A stretch of DNA of 18,454 nt from a virus, in the UHGV virus genome UHGV-0237303; one strand, written 5' to 3'. The notes below the pieces were generated by a model. It had not been told where the DNA came from, made no database searches, and saw nothing but the letters and a program-made list of their open reading frames with translations. A program made the position numbers and the translations under genes. Shown in pieces: positions 4,944 to 18,454 of the stretch; position 1 is the stretch's first letter, and each line of letters begins with the position of its first letter.

Positions 4944-5544
4944 TTCGTTGTTACCACCATCAGCCAGCAATTTCATGCGTTGTGCCGAAGCCGTCGGAAC
5001 ACGCATTACAGACATTCCGGTAGACCTCAACACGCTGTGGTCGCCGGACACCTGCCCGGTGCATCTGCTGCCTTATCTCGCCTGGGCGTTTTCCGTTGAC
5101 CGCTGGGATCGCAACTGGCCGGAAGAGACAAAGCGACAGGTGATTCGTGATGCATGGCTGATACACCGACACAAAGGGACCATCAGCGCACTGCGAAGAG
5201 CCGTGGAGCCTCTCGGCTACCTGATTGAAGTAAAGGAGTGGTGGCAACTCAACGAGGAGCCGGGAACATTTCGCATTGTTGTCGGAGTACTTGATCAGGG
5301 CATCACCGATGAAATGTATCAGGAACTTGAGCGCCTTATTGCGGATGCAAAACCAGTAAGTCGCCATCTGACGGGGCTGGCGATCAGCCTGAGTGTGAAC
5401 GGAAAGATTTTCGTTGGTACGGGATGCTATCACGGCGATGCCCTGACGGTTTATCCCTACACCCCGGAGTCCATTATTGTCGAAGGGGATTATTTCCCTG
5501 CCCCAGCCATTCATTTAATTGATAATCTGAGAGTAAACGCATGA
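4936..5544 (+). CDS. I: Baseplate/tail protein (P2 gpI-like)
   Basis: ATG at 4936 overlaps the J stop (ATGAGTAA); 202 aa; stop overlaps the H start. Confidence 0.7.
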   Translation: MSNSLLPPSASNFMRCAEAVGTRITDIPVDLNTLWSPDTCPVHLLPYLAWAFSVDRWDRNWPEETKRQVIRDAWLIHRHKGTISALRRAVEPLGYLIEVKEWWQLNEEPGTFRIVVGVLDQGITDEMYQELERLIADAKPVSRHLTGLAISLSVNGKIFVGTGCYHGDALTVYPYTPESIIVEGDYFPAPAIHLIDNLRVNA

Positions 5545-7034
5545 CAGTGAAATACTACGCCATTCTGACTAATCAGGGCGCGGCACGACTGGCTAACGCG
5601 ACGATGCTCGGCAGTAAGCTGAATCTGACGCAAATGGCCGTTGGTGATGCAAATGGTGTGTTACCAACACCAGACCCTGCACAAACAAAACTGATTAACC
5701 AGAAACGCATTGCACCGCTGAATCTTCTGAGTGTTGACCCTAACAATCAGAGCCAGATTATTGCGGAGCAAATCATCCCTGAAAACGAGGGAGGATTCTG
5801 GATCCGTGAGATTGGTCTTTATGATGATGAAGGTGTACTCATTGCGGTGGCAAACTGCCCGGAAACGTACAAACCGCAGTTGCAGGAAGGCAGTGGACGC
5901 ACCCAGACTATCCGCATGATTCTGGTTGTCACGAACACCGAAGCTATCACGCTGAAAATCGACCCGTCTGTGGTTCTGGCAACCCGCAAATATGTGGATG
6001 ATAAAATCTCAGAGCACGAACAGTCACGACGTCACCCGGACGCCTCGCTGACCGCAAAAGGTTTTACTCAGTTAAGCAGTGCAATTAACAGTGAATCAGA
6101 AACACTGGCCGCAACACCGAAAGCGGTTAAGGCTGCATATGACCTGGCTAACGGGAAATATACCGCCCAGAACGCCACCACTATACAAAAAGGGATTGTT
6201 CAGCTCAGTAGCGCCACGAACAGCAAGTCTGAAACGCTGGCAGCGACACCAAAAGCTGTTAAGGCGGTAATGGATGAAACGAACAAGAAAGCACCATTAA
6301 ACAGCCCGGCACTGACCGGAACGCCAACAACACCAACAGCGCCACAGGGGACTAATAGTACCCAGATCGCAAGCACGGCTTTCGTTATGGCCGCGATTGC
6401 CGCACTTGTAGATTCGTCACCTGATGCACTGAACACGCTGAACGAACTGGCTGCGGCGCTGGGCAATGACCCGAATTTTGCGACCACCATGACTAACGCG
6501 CTTGCGGGTAAGCAACCGAAGGATGCCACCCTGACGGCGCTGGCGGAGCTTGCTACATCAGCAGATAAACTCCCATATTTTACAGGGGCAGATCGTGCCG
6601 CGTTAACCGCGTTGACAAGTGTTGGACGTGCCATTCTTGGTAAAACCAGCACTCAGGGAGTTCTTGATTACCTTGGTTTGGGAGAAGCGGCGAAAAGGGA
6701 TGTGGGTACAGGAGAAAATCAGATACCGGATATGTCAGCCTGGAAAAGAAATCCGAGTTCTAATCGCTGGAGAAAATTGCCTGATGGAACCATCATTCAA
6801 ATGGGAATATCAGCATCAGGGCCATTAGGCTCACCTGTAAATATCACCCTGCCGATATCTTTCAGCAATACCAATTATTGTGTTGTTGCATCGTACGATA
6901 ATGCACGGTCAGGTGTGTCAACAATGGTTAGTTTTGCAGCATTACCTGTTTCACCATCGCAATTTTCCCTGATGTCATCTGTGACTGAGCAAGGAATAAA
7001 TCCTTTTGCTTACTGGATTGCTTTTGGAGATTGA
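5541..7034 (+). CDS. H: Tail fiber protein (P2 gpH-like); the last ~120 codons lie inside the invertible segment
   Basis: 497 aa; conserved N-terminus MTVKYYAILTNQGAARLANA...; duplicated fiber motif SETLAATPKAVKA; the crossover site is embedded at codons 374-382 (VLDYLGLGE). Confidence 0.8.
   Translation: MTVKYYAILTNQGAARLANATMLGSKLNLTQMAVGDANGVLPTPDPAQTKLINQKRIAPLNLLSVDPNNQSQIIAEQIIPENEGGFWIREIGLYDDEGVLIAVANCPETYKPQLQEGSGRTQTIRMILVVTNTEAITLKIDPSVVLATRKYVDDKISEHEQSRRHPDASLTAKGFTQLSSAINSESETLAATPKAVKAAYDLANGKYTAQNATTIQKGIVQLSSATNSKSETLAATPKAVKAVMDETNKKAPLNSPALTGTPTTPTAPQGTNSTQIASTAFVMAAIAALVDSSPDALNTLNELAAALGNDPNFATTMTNALAGKQPKDATLTALAELATSADKLPYFTGADRAALTALTSVGRAILGKTSTQGVLDYLGLGEAAKRDVGTGENQIPDMSAWKRNPSSNRWRKLPDGTIIQMGISASGPLGSPVNITLPISFSNTNYCVVASYDNARSGVSTMVSFAALPVSPSQFSLMSSVTEQGINPFAYWIAFGD
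6661..6686. repeat. Left 26-bp invertase crossover site (hix/gix/cix-like), inside H
   Basis: TTCTTGATTACC-TT-GGTTTGGGAGAA: two imperfect 12-bp inverted half-sites around a 2-bp core; inner arm plus core (TTGGTTTGGGAGAA) is identical to the reverse complement of 8466..8479; closely resembles the remembered hixL sequence TTCTTGAAAACCAAGGTTTTTGATAA. Confidence 0.65.
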
Positions 7035-7037
7035 TAA

Positions 7038-7457
7038 ATGGACAGATACTTCTATTCACAAAAAGAAAATGGTTTTTTTACCGATTTAAATAAAGCACCT
7101 TCAGATGCTGTTGAGATAACCACGGATGAATGGCTGTCACTACTGGATGGTCAGGATAATGGCATGAAAATAGTCAGCAATCAGGAGGGATATCCGGTTT
7201 TGACAGAGCAACCACCTTTATCAAAAGAAAACCTTATTGCATTAGCAGAGTTGAAAAAAGGAAAACTTATTAATGAAGCCAACGAGCACATGAACAGCAG
7301 GCAATGGCCTGGTAAAGCGGCTATTGGTCGTCTGAAAGGTGAGGAACTGGCGCAATATAATTTGTGGCTGGATTATCTGGACGCACTGGAGCTGGTCGAT
7401 ACTTCCAGTGCGCCAGATATTGAATGGCCTACGCCTCCGGCAGTTCAGGCCAGATGA
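7038..7457 (+). CDS. Tail fiber assembly protein (P2 gpG/Tfa-like), cassette currently in the expressed orientation
   Basis: 139 aa, 3 nt downstream of the H stop; C-terminus ...LDYLDALELVDTSSAPDIEWP is shared with the opposite-strand Tfa (...LDYIDAVTVTDTSTAPDIIWP). Confidence 0.75.
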   Translation: MDRYFYSQKENGFFTDLNKAPSDAVEITTDEWLSLLDGQDNGMKIVSNQEGYPVLTEQPPLSKENLIALAELKKGKLINEANEHMNSRQWPGKAAIGRLKGEELAQYNLWLDYLDALELVDTSSAPDIEWPTPPAVQAR

Positions 7458-8022
7458 TATCCGGCGCGGTGCTGGTATCTGTTACCGTCACCGCGTCAAT
7501 GTAATCCAGCACGGCGTTAAGTCGGGTTGTTTCTGCCTGCGCCAACTTCCGTCCGGCCTGCAATTTCAGTTGAATCAGACTAATGGAAGCCATTGCAGTA
7601 TCAATCAGTGACTGACGTTGTGCTTCTGCCGCGTCTACTGCGGCGCTATGCTGTGCCTCGGTATCCGTCACCCATTTCTCACCATCCCATTTATCGTATG
7701 GCGTTAACGGTGAAAGCGTGACATAACCGTCTTTGATGGCACCGATATAATCCACTGTAACAGCTGCGCCATTTTCTGTTGAGTAAACAGTCTCATTGCG
7801 ATGGTCTTCTTCATGGCTCCATCCCTTACCCGTAAATACTGCCACTTTTCCCGGAATGTTTTCGCCAGGGTCAATACCAGTGGAACAGGCGGGCATACTT
7901 ACGCCAGTATTAATATATTCATCAGACCAGCCCGTATACTCAGATGTTTCAGCATCATAATAAAAACAACGCATATCGCCCGGCACTGTAGCCAGCCCAT
8001 TTTCATCAAAAACAGGTTTCAT
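7429..8022 (-). CDS. Alternative tail fiber assembly protein (Tfa'), silent orientation
   Basis: 197 aa on the minus strand; conserved Tfa C-terminus; converges on and overlaps the + strand tfa by about 29 nt; start overlaps the stop of the alternative fiber cassette (TAATG). Confidence 0.7.
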   Translation of the reverse strand: MKPVFDENGLATVPGDMRCFYYDAETSEYTGWSDEYINTGVSMPACSTGIDPGENIPGKVAVFTGKGWSHEEDHRNETVYSTENGAAVTVDYIGAIKDGYVTLSPLTPYDKWDGEKWVTDTEAQHSAAVDAAEAQRQSLIDTAMASISLIQLKLQAGRKLAQAETTRLNAVLDYIDAVTVTDTSTAPDIIWPELPEA

Positions 8023-8477
8023 TATTTAGCCCTCACCAGAAAGTTAAATGCAATATTTCGCGGTCTGACAGCAACAAAATTCACACCATCACCCACAGAG
8101 TTACTGGTGAAATTAAATCGTGAAAATCCTGGCTGATTTCCGGCGATGCCATCATGAAAGTTAATTGCGTGTCCCGCACCTTCGCCTATATTCCCGGCAA
8201 ACTGAGAAAAGTTTGTAGCTGCCTGCCAGCTTAATAATTCACGACCACCGTCTGCACCTCGCCCGTCATCCCAGATACGAATGAAATCACCGCGGGCTTC
8301 AGGTAATACCAGCGAAGGAAACACTTTCGCCAGCACAGGATAATCAGTGGCAGAGAATTTCGCGCCGTTGAACTTCAAAAACACCATACTGGACCAGCTG
8401 TCGATTACAGTATTTGGCATTGCAGCGGACGGCCAGAAGAACGGAACGCCAATAGCTGGAGAACCTTCTCCCAAACC
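8022..8477 (-). CDS. Alternative tail fiber C-terminal cassette (H'), no start codon of its own; expressed only after inversion fuses it to the constant part of H
   Basis: Minus-strand frame reads GLGEGSPAIGVPFFWPSAAM... from the crossover core at 8478/8479, with the same GLGE junction as the current H; the track ORF 8022..8519 extends further 5' only because the frame stays open across the site. Confidence 0.65.
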   Translation of the reverse strand, partial: GLGEGSPAIGVPFFWPSAAMPNTVIDSWSSMVFLKFNGAKFSATDYPVLAKVFPSLVLPEARGDFIRIWDDGRGADGGRELLSWQAATNFSQFAGNIGEGAGHAINFHDGIAGNQPGFSRFNFTSNSVGDGVNFVAVRPRNIAFNFLVRAK

Positions 8478-8491
8478 AACGTTTAAGAAAA
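8466..8491. repeat. Right 26-bp invertase crossover site, inverted relative to the left site
   Basis: + strand TTCTCCCAAACC-AA-CGTTTAAGAAAA; reverse complement TTTTCTTAAACG-TT-GGTTTGGGAGAA has inner arm and core identical to the left site; lies about 55 nt upstream of the invertase start. Confidence 0.65.
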
Positions 8492-8546
8492 TGCAGAGAT
8501 TACGGCTAACTGGCATCATCCCCGGTTTTTATTCAGGGGATCCATC

Positions 8547-9146
8547 ATGCTTATTGGCTATGTCCGCGTATCAACAAATGACCAGAATACAGAATTGCAG
8601 CGTAACGCGCTGGAGTGCGCAGGATGTGAACTGATTTTTGAAGATAAAATCAGCGGAACGAAATCAGCCAGACCGGGATTGAAAAAACTGCTCAGAACGC
8701 TATCAGAAGGAGATACGCTGGTTGTCTGGAAGCTGGACAGACTGGGCAGAAGTATGAAACACCTGATCACGCTTATTGAGGAATTGCGGGAAAAAGGTGT
8801 TAATTTCCGTAGTCTGACGGACAGCATTGACACATCAACACCCATGGGGCGTTTCTTTTTTCACGTCATGGGAGCTTTAGCCGAAATGGAACGTGAATTA
8901 ATTGTAGAGCGTACACTGGCCGGGCTGGCAGCAGCACGCGCACAAGGACGCATTGGCGGACGTCGCCCGAAGTTGACAAAAGAACAACACGAGCAAATAG
9001 CGAGGCTGATTAAAAACGGTCATGACAGGAAACAACTGGCGATCATTTACGACATCGGCATATCGACGATTTATCGTTATCACCCTGTAGGCGATATACA
9101 GGCTGAAGAAACAACTAGGCAGACTCAGGAAAATGAAAACCGCTAA
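8547..9146 (+). CDS. Serine recombinase, DNA invertase (Gin/Hin/Pin/Cin family)
   Basis: 199 aa; N-terminal catalytic motif MLIGYVRVSTNDQ with the active-site serine, resolvase/invertase core (GDTLVVWKLDRLGRS), C-terminal helix-turn-helix; adjacent to the invertible segment. Confidence 0.85.
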   Translation: MLIGYVRVSTNDQNTELQRNALECAGCELIFEDKISGTKSARPGLKKLLRTLSEGDTLVVWKLDRLGRSMKHLITLIEELREKGVNFRSLTDSIDTSTPMGRFFFHVMGALAEMERELIVERTLAGLAAARAQGRIGGRRPKLTKEQHEQIARLIKNGHDRKQLAIIYDIGISTIYRYHPVGDIQAEETTRQTQENENR

Positions 9147-16135: not shown

Positions 16136-17158
16136 TTAATACGCATTTAATTTAAATTTGTATTTGCCTTCTATGTAATGGATAAATTCAATTATGCTTT
16201 TTTCTATCGCATCTAATATATGAATATATCCATCCCGATTTAAGGTCCTATCCAACTCAAAGTGATGAACTATCCCATGTCTATATTGTATGATTTCAGA
16301 AATTCGATTCTCAAGAAAATCAACTGATTTTCCAATTCTTTTTTTCTTATAAAGAATCGCTCTCACATCTATATCCAGCCACTCTTTATATGCTTTGTTT
16401 AGGTGAGTTAAGTTTTGAAAAGTGTAATTTCTTGCAATAACACTTTCTATTGAAATATTTCCTTTCTCTATCTCAAGCAGAATATCAAAATCAACTTTTT
16501 GCTTATACGATGTTCTTTTTGCTATTGCGAAAGGATCGTACTTTATAAGTATTTGAAAAGCTCTAGAGAAAAAATATTCAAACATAGCAACCGCAAAAGG
16601 TACTAATCCATTATATATAACTCTACTGGGATCCATACATTGCATGTAATCAAAGTATTCGGATAAGCCGCCATCTTCCGGTAGGTTTAATTTAATAGAA
16701 GGTTCAGGTAAGGCATGTTTAACAGCGGAAATCTCATGATGGACATGATTAAATATTGAAGAAATGCCGCGACTGATCGGACTACTAGAATCCTTCCATA
16801 GAGGAGCGTACCTATTTTTCCCATAATCACCTATAAGTGTTCCACCAAAAAGACTCCTTGCGCCTTTTAGAACATCATTAAGCATTTTTACATCATGCCA
16901 ACTAGCGCTATATAAATTACGCACATGCAATGCCCATTTATTACCAGATATGTGTAGTTCGTCATTTGAAACAGGATATATATCAGCCGAAACTCCATCT
17001 GTAGATTTGAAGTCCGTATCATCAAACCAAGAGTAATTCAACGTTCCTTGGGGCCATTCCCACAAATGTTTACACCTTTTAAAACCTAAATTTTCAAGGT
17101 AATTTTTAAGTTCGTTTCTAGTTGCTTTTTTAGGGTACAGCGTTATATCTCTTCCCAT
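16136..17158 (-). CDS. Hypothetical 340-aa protein on AT-rich acquired DNA; candidate accessory/defence protein (possible HEPN-like R-x4-H motif)
   Basis: Single long minus-strand ORF with AT-rich, Ile/Lys/Asn/Tyr-rich codon usage unlike the flanking phage genes; AGGTGA Shine-Dalgarno about 8 nt upstream of the ATG; no resemblance to any P2 structural protein I can recognise; C-terminal YRHGIVHH. Confidence 0.6.
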   Translation of the reverse strand: MGRDITLYPKKATRNELKNYLENLGFKRCKHLWEWPQGTLNYSWFDDTDFKSTDGVSADIYPVSNDELHISGNKWALHVRNLYSASWHDVKMLNDVLKGARSLFGGTLIGDYGKNRYAPLWKDSSSPISRGISSIFNHVHHEISAVKHALPEPSIKLNLPEDGGLSEYFDYMQCMDPSRVIYNGLVPFAVAMFEYFFSRAFQILIKYDPFAIAKRTSYKQKVDFDILLEIEKGNISIESVIARNYTFQNLTHLNKAYKEWLDIDVRAILYKKKRIGKSVDFLENRISEIIQYRHGIVHHFELDRTLNRDGYIHILDAIEKSIIEFIHYIEGKYKFKLNAY

Positions 17159-17349
17159 GCTTTATTCACCTGATATACAATATTTTAAATTTTAACTATT
17201 ATGAACGTATGAATTTTCACATTGGATGTATGGAAGTTCAACAACTATTGAAAGTTCAATTTTCACTCTTCGCACAGAGCGAGCTGTTAGTTGGAATTAG
17301 GGATCGTACAATCTAGAATAGCGGCAACACCACGTTAAGGGAGGTCGCT

Positions 17350-17610
17350 ATGTTCCGTTGTCCGCTTTGTGGCGCATCTGCCCGTATCCGCACAAGTCGT
17401 CCGGAAAATGATTCAAACACCGTGCGGCAAAAGTATTACCAGTGTAACAATCTGGAATGCGGCATATGCTTCTCAACACTGGAAGCTTTCCATAAATTCA
17501 CATCGAAACACGCCTCCGGCGTTCACTCTTCAGAAGGTATCCCGTGGCATGAGCTACCAGCTTCACACAGGGGAAACAATCAGATGAGTTTGCCTTTACC
17601 TCAGAATTAA
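17350..17610 (+). CDS. ogr: Ogr/Delta-family zinc-finger late transcription activator
   Basis: MFRCPLCGASARIRTSR...KYYQCNNLECGICF matches the remembered P2 Ogr pattern MFHCPLC...ARTSR...YHQCQNVNCSATF (C-x2-C...C-x4-C); strong AAGGGAGG Shine-Dalgarno; 86 aa versus 72 aa in P2. Confidence 0.8.
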   Translation: MFRCPLCGASARIRTSRPENDSNTVRQKYYQCNNLECGICFSTLEAFHKFTSKHASGVHSSEGIPWHELPASHRGNNQMSLPLPQN

Positions 17611-17800
17611 CAAGCAGAATTGCCGGAGTAACAAAAAAGCGATAGATTACGCGCGGGTGCCTTTCGGCTGATGGTCGGAGGGAATACCCGAAGGCCAGAT
17701 GTGGAAAGGCCCCGGAAAACACTTTTGTTTAACCGAGGCCCTAACCATCTACCCTAAGCAAGTGAAAGGTTAGCGCCTCTCCGGAAAAGGAGCAAGTGCT

Positions 17801-17941
17801 ATGTCGCAAAAATCGCTTACAGCCATCACGTTCTGCGTGACGGTAATCCTCATCATCTGGATGTTGCACGGTTCGCTGTGCGAAATACGGATGAGTTTCT
17901 GGGGAGCGGAGTTTGCGGCGTTCTTACAGTGTAAGCAGTAA
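17801..17941 (+). CDS. Hok/Gef-family type I toxin (small membrane peptide), 46 aa
   Basis: MSQKSLTAITFCVTVILIIWMLHGSLCEIRMSFWGAEFAAFLQCKQ: single TM helix with C-x-T and the family-typical SLCEIR motif; AAGGAG Shine-Dalgarno 8 nt upstream; below the 60-aa cutoff of the ORF track. Confidence 0.65.
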   Translation: MSQKSLTAITFCVTVILIIWMLHGSLCEIRMSFWGAEFAAFLQCKQ

Positions 17942-17950
17942 GGAAACCGC

Positions 17951-17972
17951 GACGGGGGAGTAATCCCCCGTC
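17951..17972 (+). ncRNA. Stable 3' stem-loop directly after the hok-like ORF (candidate mRNA 3' structural element / terminator)
   Basis: Perfect 9-bp stem GACGGGGGA / TCCCCCGTC with GTAA loop starting about 10 nt after the stop codon; not followed by a clear U-tract. Confidence 0.4.
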
Positions 17973-18202
17973 AATCGGTTGCCAGGGTAAGGTCGATAAG
18001 GCACCCTATCTCACGGCTCTAAATGCAAAAATTCCATGAAACTGTGGGATTTTTGCATCACTACTGATACAGATCTGACCTTCTTTATGTCTCACTCTAT
18101 ACCAGCTAATCAATTGACACTTATCAATAAAAAAAAATCTGATAAAATCAAAATGTTTTGTAACAAATATCAACTCGTATTGATCCAAAGGAGGCGGATT
18201 AC

Positions 18203-18454
18203 ATGGCATTAATCAAATGTCCTGAATGCCAGAAAGAGGTGAGCGATTCAGCATTGTATTGCCCTGCTTGCGGTAAACAAATAAAAAAACTTAAGCGTTC
18301 ATTTTTTGGAAAGCTCATTAAGTGGATTTTTATATTATTTAATATTTTTATGATCTATACGCTTTTAGTTGGACTGGGAGGCACTAGTGAAATAATAAAT
18401 AATGCTACATCCGATGCCGAAAAAACCGGTGCAGTTATTGGTACAGGCTTAGGT
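18203..18454 (+). CDS. Zinc-ribbon membrane protein of unknown function, 5' part only (open to the window end)
   Basis: ATG at 18203 with AAGGAGG Shine-Dalgarno about 8 nt upstream; 84 codons without a stop to the window edge; N-terminal CPEC-x10-CPAC zinc ribbon, then a TM helix (LIKWIFILFNIFMIYTLLVGLGG); AT-rich; absent from the track because it has no stop in the window. Confidence 0.5.
   Translation, partial: MALIKCPECQKEVSDSALYCPACGKQIKKLKRSFFGKLIKWIFILFNIFMIYTLLVGLGGTSEIINNATSDAEKTGAVIGTGLG

What the first reader, a model, noticed from the sequence alone, without database searches (positions are those of the whole stretch)
17611..18000. Unannotated Hok/Gef-family type I toxin locus immediately downstream of ogr
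Seen in sequence: a 46-codon ORF with a good Shine-Dalgarno encodes a single-TM peptide with the family-typical SLCEIR motif; it is invisible to the 60-aa ORF track. It is followed by a perfect 9-bp GC stem-loop and preceded by about 190 nt of structured, GC-balanced leader that could hold a mok-like reading frame and an antisense sok-like RNA. Established knowledge: hok/sok-type loci use a cis-antisense RNA and mRNA fold-back control, and type I toxin-antitoxin loci occur on prophages where they can stabilise the element or contribute to phage exclusion. Its place between ogr and the next AT-rich cargo gene suggests it belongs to the accessory region rather than the P2 core.
Basis: partly seen in the sequence, partly recalled or inferred. 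Interest (0 to 1): 0.5.

Follow-up and report, generated by a model that had tools for sequence, protein, structure and literature searches.

The report
Known hok/sok toxin cassette on prophage
This is a real but already catalogued hok/sok "host-killing" toxin–antisense RNA cassette sitting at the end of a P2-like prophage; its one unusual feature is that it lacks the usual helper reading frame (mok).

Summary
ORF 17801-17941 (+) encodes a 46-aa peptide that passes Pfam HOK_GEF (30.1 bits, cut-off 22). It has an AAGGAG Shine-Dalgarno and is followed by a perfect 9-bp GC hairpin.

The surrounding RNA has the hok/sok layout:
- a weak promoter and a 5' end at about 17655;
- an alternative tac/ucb pairing;
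- a target hairpin with a hypervariable loop;
- a conserved antisense promoter (TTGCTC-17-TAACCT) for a Sok RNA of about 59 nt (about 17759 to 17701, minus strand).

Fifty-eight distinct relatives keep these helices, with compensatory changes.

The locus is not new. RefSeq annotates this exact protein as "Hok/Gef family protein" in about 1,590 complete E. coli genomes. A 2026 preprint catalogues the peptide in its cluster 72. By that preprint's text, a one-residue variant was among the homologs that were toxic on overexpression.

It is accessory cargo. The conserved cassette (17620-18006) lies after ogr in 89 of 120 related viral loci, and in lambdoid phages elsewhere.

No mok frame overlaps hok here: stops fall at 17755 and 17771. 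Likewise 54 of 89 distinct relatives have no leader ORF reaching hok. So either control is mok-independent or many copies are translationally quiet. Interest is low.

The parts
17620..17648 (+). Predicted hok promoter: -35 TTGCCG (17620-25), 17-nt spacer, -10 TAGATT (17643-48)
   Evidence: Read from the sequence. Both hexamers are conserved in relatives, and conservation collapses upstream of 17620. At 8 of 12 matches it is below the scanner's threshold. Inferred, not mapped.
17655..18010 (+). Full-length hok mRNA (about 355 nt). The 5' end is inferred; the 3' end is not defined.
   Evidence: The Rfam RF01794 alignment starts at 17655. Homology with other phages' cassettes ends at 18006. MFE -160.5 kcal/mol, z = -7.3.
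17655..17669 (+). tac element (5' end). It has three alternative partners: 17673-89 (nascent metastable hairpin), 17701-13 (ucb) and 17991-18006 (fbi).
   Evidence: (I7, I8). It is among the least variable segments of the cassette (diversity 0.036 against a mean of 0.125).
17701..17713 (+). ucb (upstream complementary box). It pairs with the GAGG region in the full-length fold and with tac in the truncated fold.
   Evidence: The tac/ucb helix is 99.3% paired in 58 sequences. Diversity of 17704-13 is 0.01.
17735..17779 (+). Sok-target hairpin: GAGGCCCTAACC / GGTTAGCGCCTC stem with a loop at about 17747-17767. The hypervariable patch is 17745-56.
   Evidence: (I4). The helix is 99.5% paired. The loop's unpaired probability is 0.18 in the full-length RNA and 0.78 in the truncated RNA. 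Diversity peaks here at 0.40.
17767..17795 (-). Predicted Sok promoter: -35 TTGCTC (17795-90), 17-nt spacer, -10 TAACCT (17772-67)
   Evidence: Read from the minus strand. AGGTTAGCGCCTC 17767-79 is unchanged in nearly all relatives, and the TTG of the -35 and the 17-nt spacing are kept. Inferred by position from K-12 sokC. Not mapped.
17701..17759 (-). Predicted Sok antisense RNA, about 59 nt: a 5' single-stranded tail complementary to the variable loop, then a hairpin and a short U tract
   Evidence: K-12 sokC covers -49 to -107 relative to the hokC ATG on the opposite strand, which transfers to about 17694-17752 here. The minus strand folds at -34.6 kcal/mol, z = -5.5. The ends are inferred.
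17671..17773 (+). Two short leader ORFs (17671-17757, 28 aa; 17699-17773, 24 aa). Neither reaches hok and neither is conserved.
   Evidence: The frame that corresponds to R1 mok is closed by TAA 17755-57. The hok frame is closed by TAG 17771-73, which is part of the Sok -10 on the other strand.
17771..17801 (+). hok translation-initiation region: anti-SD strand 17771-82 pairs with the SD and spacer 17789-17801 in the full-length fold. The SD is AAGGAG, 17787-92.
   Evidence: Helix 7 is 93.9% paired. Coordinates.
17801..17941 (+). hok coding sequence, 46 aa
   Evidence: The ORF is intact in 62 of 62 and 25 of 27 distinct relatives. Diversity by codon position is 0.069 / 0.038 / 0.123.
17905..17921 (+). 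Internal partner of the hok start region: 17801-17 pairs with 17905-21
   Evidence: Fifteen pairs, 14 of them invariant across 58 sequences, including sites that would be synonymous (helix 10).
17951..17972 (+). 9-bp GC stem-loop, most likely the 3' protective hairpin of the processed (truncated) mRNA
   Evidence: I9. 100% paired in 58 sequences, with compensatory GC<->AU (21 sequences) and AU<->CG/GC (17 sequences) changes (helix 15). The role is inferred from R1 (PMC9841398).
17975..17989 (+). 3'-UTR segments that pair with the Sok-target loop (17750-55, 17758-65) in the full-length fold
   Evidence: helices 5 and 6. Helix 6 has compensatory changes in 13 sequences. Coordinates.
17991..18006 (+). 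fbi (fold-back inhibition) element, complementary to tac
   Evidence: I7: 9 nt, 100%.. Helix 1 has 15 pairs, is 95.8% paired, and shows only one-sided GC/GU and UA/UG changes.

Best explanation

Proposed sequence of events:
1. A weak promoter makes a stable hok mRNA of about 355 nt.
2. While the RNA is being made, its 5' tac element is held in a local hairpin.
3. In the finished RNA, tac pairs with fbi at the 3' end. That closes the molecule, hides the Sok-target loop against the 3' UTR, and pairs the hok Shine-Dalgarno with an upstream anti-SD strand.
4. Slow 3' trimming back to the 9-bp GC hairpin removes fbi. Tac then switches to ucb, and the target hairpin forms and exposes its loop.
5. 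A short, unstable antisense Sok RNA (about 17759 to 17701, minus strand) binds that loop with its 5' tail, and the duplex is destroyed.
6. When Sok supply stops (prophage loss, transcription shut-off on phage infection, or prophage induction), the stored truncated mRNA is translated. The 46-aa Hok peptide then depolarises the inner membrane.

What is shown here: the peptide's family membership, all the alternative pairings and their conservation, and the cassette's borders and spread. By a preprint's account, a one-residue variant of the peptide was toxic on overexpression.

What is inferred by homology: the transcript ends, the processing, Sok itself, RNase III cleavage, and the biological role.

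The weak step is translation. The usual mok coupling is not available in this copy.
For: - Protein: Pfam HOK_GEF above threshold; PHROG 251; 43% identical to K-12 HokA with both cysteines.
- Leader: the Rfam hok-leader model matches the sense strand, E 2.7e-10. The model's strand was checked on K-12 hokC/sokC.
- Folds: nascent hairpin; full-length tac/fbi, z -7.3; truncated tac/ucb plus target hairpin, z -6.7.
- Conservation across 58 distinct cassettes: 94.5% and 95.7% of cells paired, against 39-44% when partners are slid. There are 14 and 9 pairs with changes on both sides.
- Loop exposure: unpaired probability rises from 0.18 to 0.78 on truncation.
- Sok: the -10 region is unchanged in nearly all relatives, and the most variable patch lies exactly at Sok's predicted 5' tail.
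- Selection on Hok: the ORF is intact in 87 of 89 distinct relatives, and third codon positions are the most variable.
- Toxicity: construct 72_1621 (V15A relative to this peptide) and 72_1589 are in the preprint's table of test constructs, and neither is among the three homologs it names as non-toxic (10.1101/2025.08.07.668861).
- A different, 51-aa prophage Hok, hokW/sokW, has been shown to be a working type I pair (PMC8621323).
Against: - No leader ORF reaches the hok SD. In R1, premature stops in mok before hok abolish Hok translation (PMC9841398).
- The hok AUG stays mostly paired (unpaired probability about 0.25) in every modelled state, and the SD opens only from 0.33 to 0.42.
- The predicted promoters are weak matches and were not picked up by the consensus scan.
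- The Rfam score (51.8) is below the gathering score of 59.
- No clear terminator follows fbi.
- Wild-type chromosomal hokA, hokB and hokC loci were reported not to mediate post-segregational killing (cited in 10.1101/2025.08.07.668861).
- Nothing here shows that Sok or the hok mRNA is actually made.
Confidence: 0.8

Rival explanations
1. The cassette is structurally intact but translationally silent: a mok-null hok locus. The RNAs are made and Sok still pairs, but Hok is essentially never produced because no ribosome travels through the leader to open the hok start region. On this view the copy persists by hitch-hiking on the prophage and does not kill.
For: - Stops at 17755-57, 17763-65 and 17771-73 close all three frames before the hok SD.
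- In R1, translation of mok up to the hok SD is mandatory (PMC9841398).
- The hok AUG lies in a 15-17 bp helix that is nearly invariant and stays paired in all modelled states.
- Chromosomal hok loci have been reported inactive in killing assays.
Against: - The same mok-less state is found in 54 of 89 distinct cassettes, spread over several backbones, while the Hok ORF is intact in 87 of 89. Hok also shows a coding pattern of variation. That argues for continuing selection on the peptide.
- The regulatory helices and the Sok promoter are conserved too, which a dead locus would not need.
- The hypervariable loop carries indels that are not multiples of three, so a mok frame was probably never a conserved feature of this cluster.
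Confidence: 0.3
2. The cassette is active and its role is phage-centred rather than maintenance. Either Hok helps lyse the cell when the P2-like prophage is induced (as shown for hokW/sokW of Sp5), or it kills cells infected by other phages once host transcription and Sok supply stop (abortive infection).
For: - hokW-sokW raises phage release about two-fold after mitomycin C (PMC8621323).
- hok genes are about four-fold enriched in prophages (10.1101/2025.08.07.668861).
- This cassette lies after ogr in 89 of 120 related viral loci, with no terminator-like site between ogr's stop (17610) and the hok promoter. Late-gene read-through could therefore feed it.
Against: - Nothing in the sequence distinguishes these roles from plain stabilisation.
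- No PADLOC model hits the peptide.
Confidence: 0.35
3. The ORF is a chance small ORF and the SLCEIR resemblance is coincidental.
For: Only its small size and its invisibility to a 60-aa ORF filter.
Against: - Family thresholds are passed.
- The exact peptide is seen on at least 1,000 contigs under the name Hok/Gef.
- Codon-position diversity follows a coding pattern.
- A complete hok-type RNA architecture surrounds it.
Confidence: 0.01

Closest known systems
hok/mok/sok of plasmid R1 (the paradigm type I toxin-antitoxin)
   Same: - A small single-pass membrane toxin with the L-C-E core.
- A weak hok promoter.
- A 5' tac element with three alternative partners: a nascent hairpin, ucb and a 3' fbi.
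- A GAGG-containing target hairpin.
- A cis-antisense RNA gene whose -35 and -10 lie opposite the hok SD and the hairpin's 3' arm. From memory of the R1 sequence, its spacing is also 17 nt.
- A stable 3' stem-loop upstream of fbi.
(R1 description in PMC9841398.)
   Different: - The peptide is 46 aa rather than 52.
- There is no AUG after the GAGG 'mok SD', and no leader ORF reaches hok.
- The Sok -10 TAACCT itself places a TAG in the hok frame.
- It sits on a prophage rather than a plasmid. Only 35 of 72,556 plasmid records carry this cassette.
Chromosomal hokA/sokA of E. coli (and hokC/mokC/sokC of K-12)
   Same: - HokA is the nearest named homolog: 43% identity and the best NCBIfam model. 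Both cysteines are hard-coded, as in HokA.
- The leader aligns with the hokC leader, and the Sok position transfers from the annotated sokC.
   Different: - It scores far below the HokA equivalog cut-off (35.8 against 89 bits), so it is not hokA.
- In hokC, and probably hokA, mok is an in-frame N-terminal extension of hok (and by the shared stop codon). Here that frame is blocked by TAG 17771-73 in essentially every relative.
Hok '60% identity cluster 72' in the catalogue of Escalera-Maurer et al. (bioRxiv 10.1101/2025.08.07.668861)
   Same: - The exact peptide is listed there as sequence 1628.
- Its one-residue variant 72_1621 and the lambdoid-phage variant 72_1589 were cloned for the toxicity assay. 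Neither is among the three homologs named as non-toxic.
   Different: That study deliberately analysed only the coding sequence. It states that Mok, Sok and the mRNA structure were not analysed. The RNA anatomy and the mok-less state described here are therefore not in it.
hokW/sokW of Stx2 prophage Sp5 (PMC8621323)
   Same: A prophage-borne hok/sok pair shown to be a working type I system, with a role in lysis on induction. Phage RefSeq records label this ORF 'MokW-like host killing'.
   Different: HokW is a different, 51-aa, HokC-like peptide (primer sequence MKQQKAM...). The Stx-phage locus that is 82.5% identical to this one is a separate 46-aa hok. The 'MokW-like' label is a transferred name, not evidence of a mok.

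Membership tests
Hok/Gef toxin family (Pfam PF01848) | Sequence match to the family profile above the curated threshold | tested here: met
   30.1 bits against a gathering score of 22, E 3.7e-7, covering profile positions 5-42 of 42. PHROG 251 E 2.5e-23.
Hok/Gef toxin family (Pfam PF01848) | Family-conserved residues (M1, C16, T18, L30, C31, E32, E41 of the published logo) and a single N-terminal hydrophobic helix | tested here: met
   M1, C12, T14, L26, C27, E28 and E37 are invariant in the alignment with HokA and HokC (logo). Residues 6-23 are hydrophobic (read from the sequence).
Hok/Gef toxin family (Pfam PF01848) | Toxicity on expression | not testable with these tools
   From the literature only: variant 72_1621 (V15A) is in the preprint's table of test constructs and is not among the three homologs named as non-toxic.
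[quoted passage not shown] | 5' tac / 3' fbi long-range pairing that closes the full-length mRNA | tested here: met
   9 nt perfect, extended to 15 pairs. 95.8% paired in 58 relatives, with one-sided compatible changes only.
[quoted passage not shown] | Alternative tac/ucb pairing and target hairpin in the 3'-truncated mRNA, plus a nascent metastable 5' hairpin | tested here: met
   The helices are 99.3% and 99.5% paired. These helices show only invariant or one-sided changes, so the support comes from conservation and energy, not from covariation.
[quoted passage not shown] | Cis-encoded antisense Sok RNA with its own promoter, overlapping the leader | tested here: inconclusive
   A conserved TTGNNN-17-TAACCT and a hairpin with a short U tract sit at the position homologous to annotated sokC. 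There is no transcript evidence, and the promoter is below the scanner's threshold.
[quoted passage not shown] | mok reading frame that starts in the Sok-target region and is translated at least up to the hok SD | tested here: not met
   No ATG, GTG or TTG follows the GAGG. All three frames stop at 17755-57, 17763-65 or 17771-73. The same holds in 54 of 89 distinct relatives.
[quoted passage not shown] | Match to the Rfam hok-leader/sok model RF01794 at the gathering score | tested here: not met
   51.8 bits against 59, although E is 2.7e-10 and the match is full length, 1-157. K-12 hokC scores 118.3.
HokA (NCBIfam NF007290 equivalog) | Score at or above the equivalog cut-off | tested here: not met
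   35.8 bits against a cut-off of 89. 43% identity to K-12 HokA.

The most novel reading that the evidence does not exclude
The whole Hok 'cluster 72' lineage (46-aa Hok on P2-like and lambdoid prophages) works without mok.

On this reading, 3' processing flips tac from fbi to ucb. That lets the GAGG arm capture the strand that otherwise masks the hok Shine-Dalgarno. Sok then represses in one of three ways: by undoing that capture, by triggering RNase III decay, or by occupying a ribosome standby site in the loop. It does not act by blocking a leader peptide.

The hypervariable loop would then be the address label that keeps several co-resident cassettes from cross-neutralising one another (up to 9 matching places per genome).
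Probability: 0.35. Interest if true: 0.4.

Novelty: already known. Interest (0 to 1): 0.18.

Why it matters
For genome annotation it matters little. The toxin gene is already called by standard pipelines, and the family is a textbook case.

Two practical points remain:
1. The RNA parts (Sok, tac, fbi, ucb) go unannotated, because the only Rfam model scores below its threshold here. That model also represents the sense strand despite being named 'sok'.
2. This abundant prophage-borne lineage lacks the mok coupling that is treated as essential in R1. It is therefore a convenient natural case for asking whether mok is really a general requirement of hok/sok control, or whether many prophage copies are silent passengers.

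Tried and rejected
I used degenerate DNA patterns instead.
- The one genome-contig scan gave only two relevant Salmonella loci: one near-identical and one with a decayed leader. It added nothing on mok.
- I considered ATG 17699 ('MWKGP...', with a GAAGG 5 nt upstream) as a substitute leader peptide that Sok could block. I rejected it for three reasons. Its end point varies from -83 to +137 among relatives. It reads ATG-TGA or is absent in the sister branch. It is also paired in every predicted fold.
- I considered ATG 17671 in the same way and rejected it. Many relatives stop after 4-6 codons.
- I tested a mok-independent switch by computing accessibility. The change goes in the predicted direction but is small (SD 0.33 -> 0.42 -> 0.33), and the AUG stays paired. 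The model is therefore kept only as the 'novel case'.
- The identity 'hokW', suggested by phage annotations, was rejected. HokW is a different 51-aa peptide.
- The consensus promoter/terminator scan found none of the predicted signals on the relevant strands.
- K-12 hokA could not be used for a leader comparison, because IS150 cuts it off.

Full report

Yes. The plus strand holds an ATG-initiated ORF at 17801-17941 that encodes MSQKSLTAITFCVTVILIIWMLHGSLCEIRMSFWGAEFAAFLQCKQ, 46 aa. AAGGAG lies 8 nt upstream of the ATG. The hairpin GACGGGGGA-GTAA-TCCCCCGTC at 17951-17972 is a perfect 9-bp stem.

The stretch 17300-18000 has 49-52% G+C. It is flanked by 29-38% G+C on both sides.

The peptide is not a chance look-alike:
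- It passes the Pfam HOK_GEF gathering score: 30.1 against 22 bits, E 3.7e-7.
- It matches PHROG 251 at E 2.5e-23.
- It carries all seven residues reported as conserved in more than 80% of Hok peptides.

**2. What is around it?**

The only Rfam family that comes near is RF01794 'sok'. It matches the plus strand at 17655-17814 over its full length, with E 2.7e-10. The score is 51.8 bits, below the gathering score of 59.

I checked what that model represents using E. coli K-12. It hits the strand of hokC/mokC at 118 bits, whereas the annotated sokC RNA lies on the other strand. So the model describes the hok mRNA leader, from the mRNA 5' end to the hok ATG. The hit therefore places the 5' end of the hok mRNA at about 17655.

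The first nine bases, GGGTGCCTT (17655-63), are perfectly complementary to AAGGCACCC at 17998-18006. In the minimum-energy fold of 17655-18012, fifteen 5' bases pair with 17991-18006 (-160.5 kcal/mol, z = -7.3). This is the tac/fbi fold-back of the R1 paradigm.

The other two conformations of the paradigm (as summarised in PMC9841398) also come out of the sequence:
- The nascent 5' part folds tac into a local hairpin with 17673-89.
- An RNA truncated after the GC hairpin (17655-17975) pairs tac with 17701-13 (ucb). It also forms a hairpin GAGGCCCTAACC/GGTTAGCGCCTC (17735-46/17768-79) with a large loop (z = -6.7).

The computed unpaired probability of that loop rises from 0.18 in the full-length RNA to 0.78 in the truncated RNA. 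In the full-length fold the loop is held by 3'-UTR segments at 17975-89.

**3. The antisense gene**

On the minus strand, TTGCTC (17795-90), a 17-nt spacer and TAACCT (17772-67) precede a start near 17759. The RNA from there would run to about 17701. It would have a free 5' tail complementary to the loop, followed by a strong hairpin and a short U tract (-34.6 kcal/mol, z = -5.5).

This is where K-12 sokC lies relative to hokC: -49 to -107 from the ATG, on the opposite strand.

No transcript data were available, so Sok and both promoters are inferred. The consensus scanner did not report them, because they match only 7-8 of 12 positions.

**4. Comparative evidence**

A degenerate pattern for the Hok C-terminus pulled 120 loci from IMG/VR, which gave 62 distinct 450-nt cassettes.

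Borders and coding:
- Conservation is high from about 17620 to 18006 and collapses on both sides, so the cassette has sharp borders: the -35 of the hok promoter and the end of fbi.
- The Hok ORF is intact in 62 of 62.
- Diversity by codon position is 0.069 / 0.038 / 0.123, a coding pattern.

Structure, tested on an alignment of 58 distinct sequences:
- The full-length structure has 94.5% of cells paired, against 39-44% when partners are slid. Fourteen pairs have changes on both sides.
- The truncated structure has 95.7% paired, with 9 such pairs.
- The 9-bp hairpin is 100% paired, with GC<->AU changes (21 sequences) and AU<->CG/GC changes (17 sequences).
- The helix 17758-65/17975-82 has compensatory changes in 13 sequences.
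- The tac/fbi and tac/ucb helices are almost invariant, so they are supported by conservation rather than covariation.
- These structures were derived from the window sequence itself, which inflates the comparison with slid partners.

Variation:
- The most variable patch of the whole cassette is 17745-56 (0.40 against a mean of 0.125). This is the target loop, which is also Sok's 5' tail.
- AGGTTAGCGCCTC (17767-79, the Sok -10 region) is unchanged in nearly all relatives.
- Up to nine matching places occur per E. coli genome. A variable recognition loop is therefore what one would expect if co-resident cassettes must avoid cross-talk. This last point is inference.

**5. The mok question**

In R1, mok starts 8 nt after a GAGG in the target hairpin. 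It must be translated at least to the hok SD, and premature stops abolish Hok translation (PMC9841398).

Here the GAGG is present (17735-38), but no ATG, GTG or TTG follows it. All three frames are closed before the hok SD:
- TAA 17755-57, in the frame that corresponds to R1 mok;
- TGA 17763-65;
- TAG 17771-73, in the hok frame, which is the frame used by mokC.

That TAG is part of the Sok -10, and it is present in essentially every relative.

Two short leader ORFs exist (17671-17757 and 17699-17773), but they are not conserved. Their end points scatter among relatives. In a sister branch (Hok ...AEIAAFLQCK) the second one reads ATG-TGA or is absent.

Altogether, 34 of 62 and 20 of 27 distinct cassettes have no leader ORF that reaches hok. 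The variable loop also carries indels that are not multiples of three.

Two readings follow:
- The lineage may control hok without mok.
- Many copies may be translationally quiet.

The accessibility calculation gives only weak support to a purely structural switch. The SD goes 0.33 -> 0.42 -> 0.33 with the Sok region blocked. The AUG stays at about 0.25 throughout, held in a nearly invariant helix with 17905-21.

**6. Is it new?**

No.
- The 390-nt region is found in 1,586 of 5,426 complete E. coli genomes. The ORF is annotated 'Hok/Gef family protein' (WP_000078920.1) at exactly these borders.
- P2-like phage records label it 'MokW-like host killing'.
- The exact peptide is on at least 1,000 contigs.
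- A 2026 preprint that catalogues Hok diversity lists this very peptide as sequence 1628, in cluster 72.
- That preprint cloned its V15A variant (72_1621) and the lambdoid-phage variant (72_1589) for a toxicity assay. It names only three other homologs as non-toxic.
- The same preprint reports a four-fold enrichment of hok in prophages. It says it did not analyse Mok, Sok or the mRNA structure.
- hokW/sokW of prophage Sp5, a working type I pair that aids lysis on induction (PMC8621323), is a different, 51-aa Hok. The 'MokW-like' name is only a transferred label.
- The nearest named homolog is HokA: 43% identity, and far below the HokA equivalog cut-off.

What remains unannotated is the RNA part. 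Nothing in the window reaches an Rfam gathering score.

**7. Context**

The window is a P2-like (Peduoviridae) prophage with baseplate, tail fibre, invertase, tape measure, sheath, gpD-like and ogr genes.
- The cassette follows ogr directly, with 10 nt between the ogr stop and the hok -35.
- Of 120 related viral loci, 89 have ogr just upstream. In 46 of those the viral contig ends within 700 nt after hok, which places it at the prophage end.
- 28 loci sit in other backbones, such as Stx and lambdoid phages, with the same cassette borders.
- Downstream neighbours vary. The zinc-ribbon gene seen here follows in only 7 of the 120.
- Only 35 plasmid records carry the cassette.

**8. Verdict**

This is a correct identification of an ordinary, already catalogued element. 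The mechanism follows the R1 paradigm in every RNA feature that could be tested by sequence, with one exception: mok coupling fails the test. That exception is the only point of specialist interest, and it needs experiments to resolve.

Noticed in passing
window 16136-17158 (-): An AT-rich (about 30% GC) 340-aa ORF is wedged between the gpD-like tail gene and ogr. Its only match is a sub-threshold Pfam HEPN_RiboL-PSP hit (22.5 against 28.4 bits). It has no PHROG, PADLOC or PDB sequence hit. It looks like a second cargo gene, possibly for defence, in this prophage arm.
   Followed up: partly
window 5541-9146: A DNA invertase (8547-9146, phrog_125, E 1.8e-99) sits beside tail-fibre and fibre-assembly ORFs on opposite strands (5541-7034 +, 7038-7457 +, 7429-8022 -, 8022-8519 -). 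This suggests a Gin/Cin-type invertible host-range segment. No inverted repeat of 20 nt or more was found in 6500-8700.
   Followed up: partly
window 18203-18454 (+) and L001 3593-4823: An AT-rich zinc-ribbon membrane protein gene (phrog_6586) lies downstream of hok. In strain 503025 it is followed by a gene annotated 'TagO' and then the host gene flk. Only 7 of 120 related hok loci have this neighbour, so it is a separate variable module or flanking islet.
   Followed up: partly
window 18023-18058: A 14-bp AT-rich inverted repeat (ATGCAAAAATTCCA / TGGGATTTTTGCAT) lies just outside the conserved cassette. It could be a terminator for hok read-through or belong to the next gene's control region. 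It is not conserved with the cassette.
   Followed up: no
Rfam RF01794, seen on window 17655-17814 (+) and L003 502-654 (-): The Rfam family named 'sok antitoxin' models the sense strand of the hok mRNA leader, up to the hok ATG. In K-12 it hits the hokC strand, while sokC is annotated on the other strand. Hits to it should not be read as giving the Sok strand.
   Followed up: yes
window 17801-17817 with 17905-17921: The hok start codon region pairs with codons 36-41 of hok. The helix has 15 pairs, 14 of them invariant across 58 sequences, including positions that could change synonymously. This points to a constraint beyond coding.
   Followed up: partly
L127 (Salmonella enterica subsp. diarizonae, NZ_VXJV01000002.1): A related copy has an intact 46-aa ORF but a deletion in the leader and a damaged Shine-Dalgarno (AACGAG). 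It looks like a decaying cassette.
   Followed up: no
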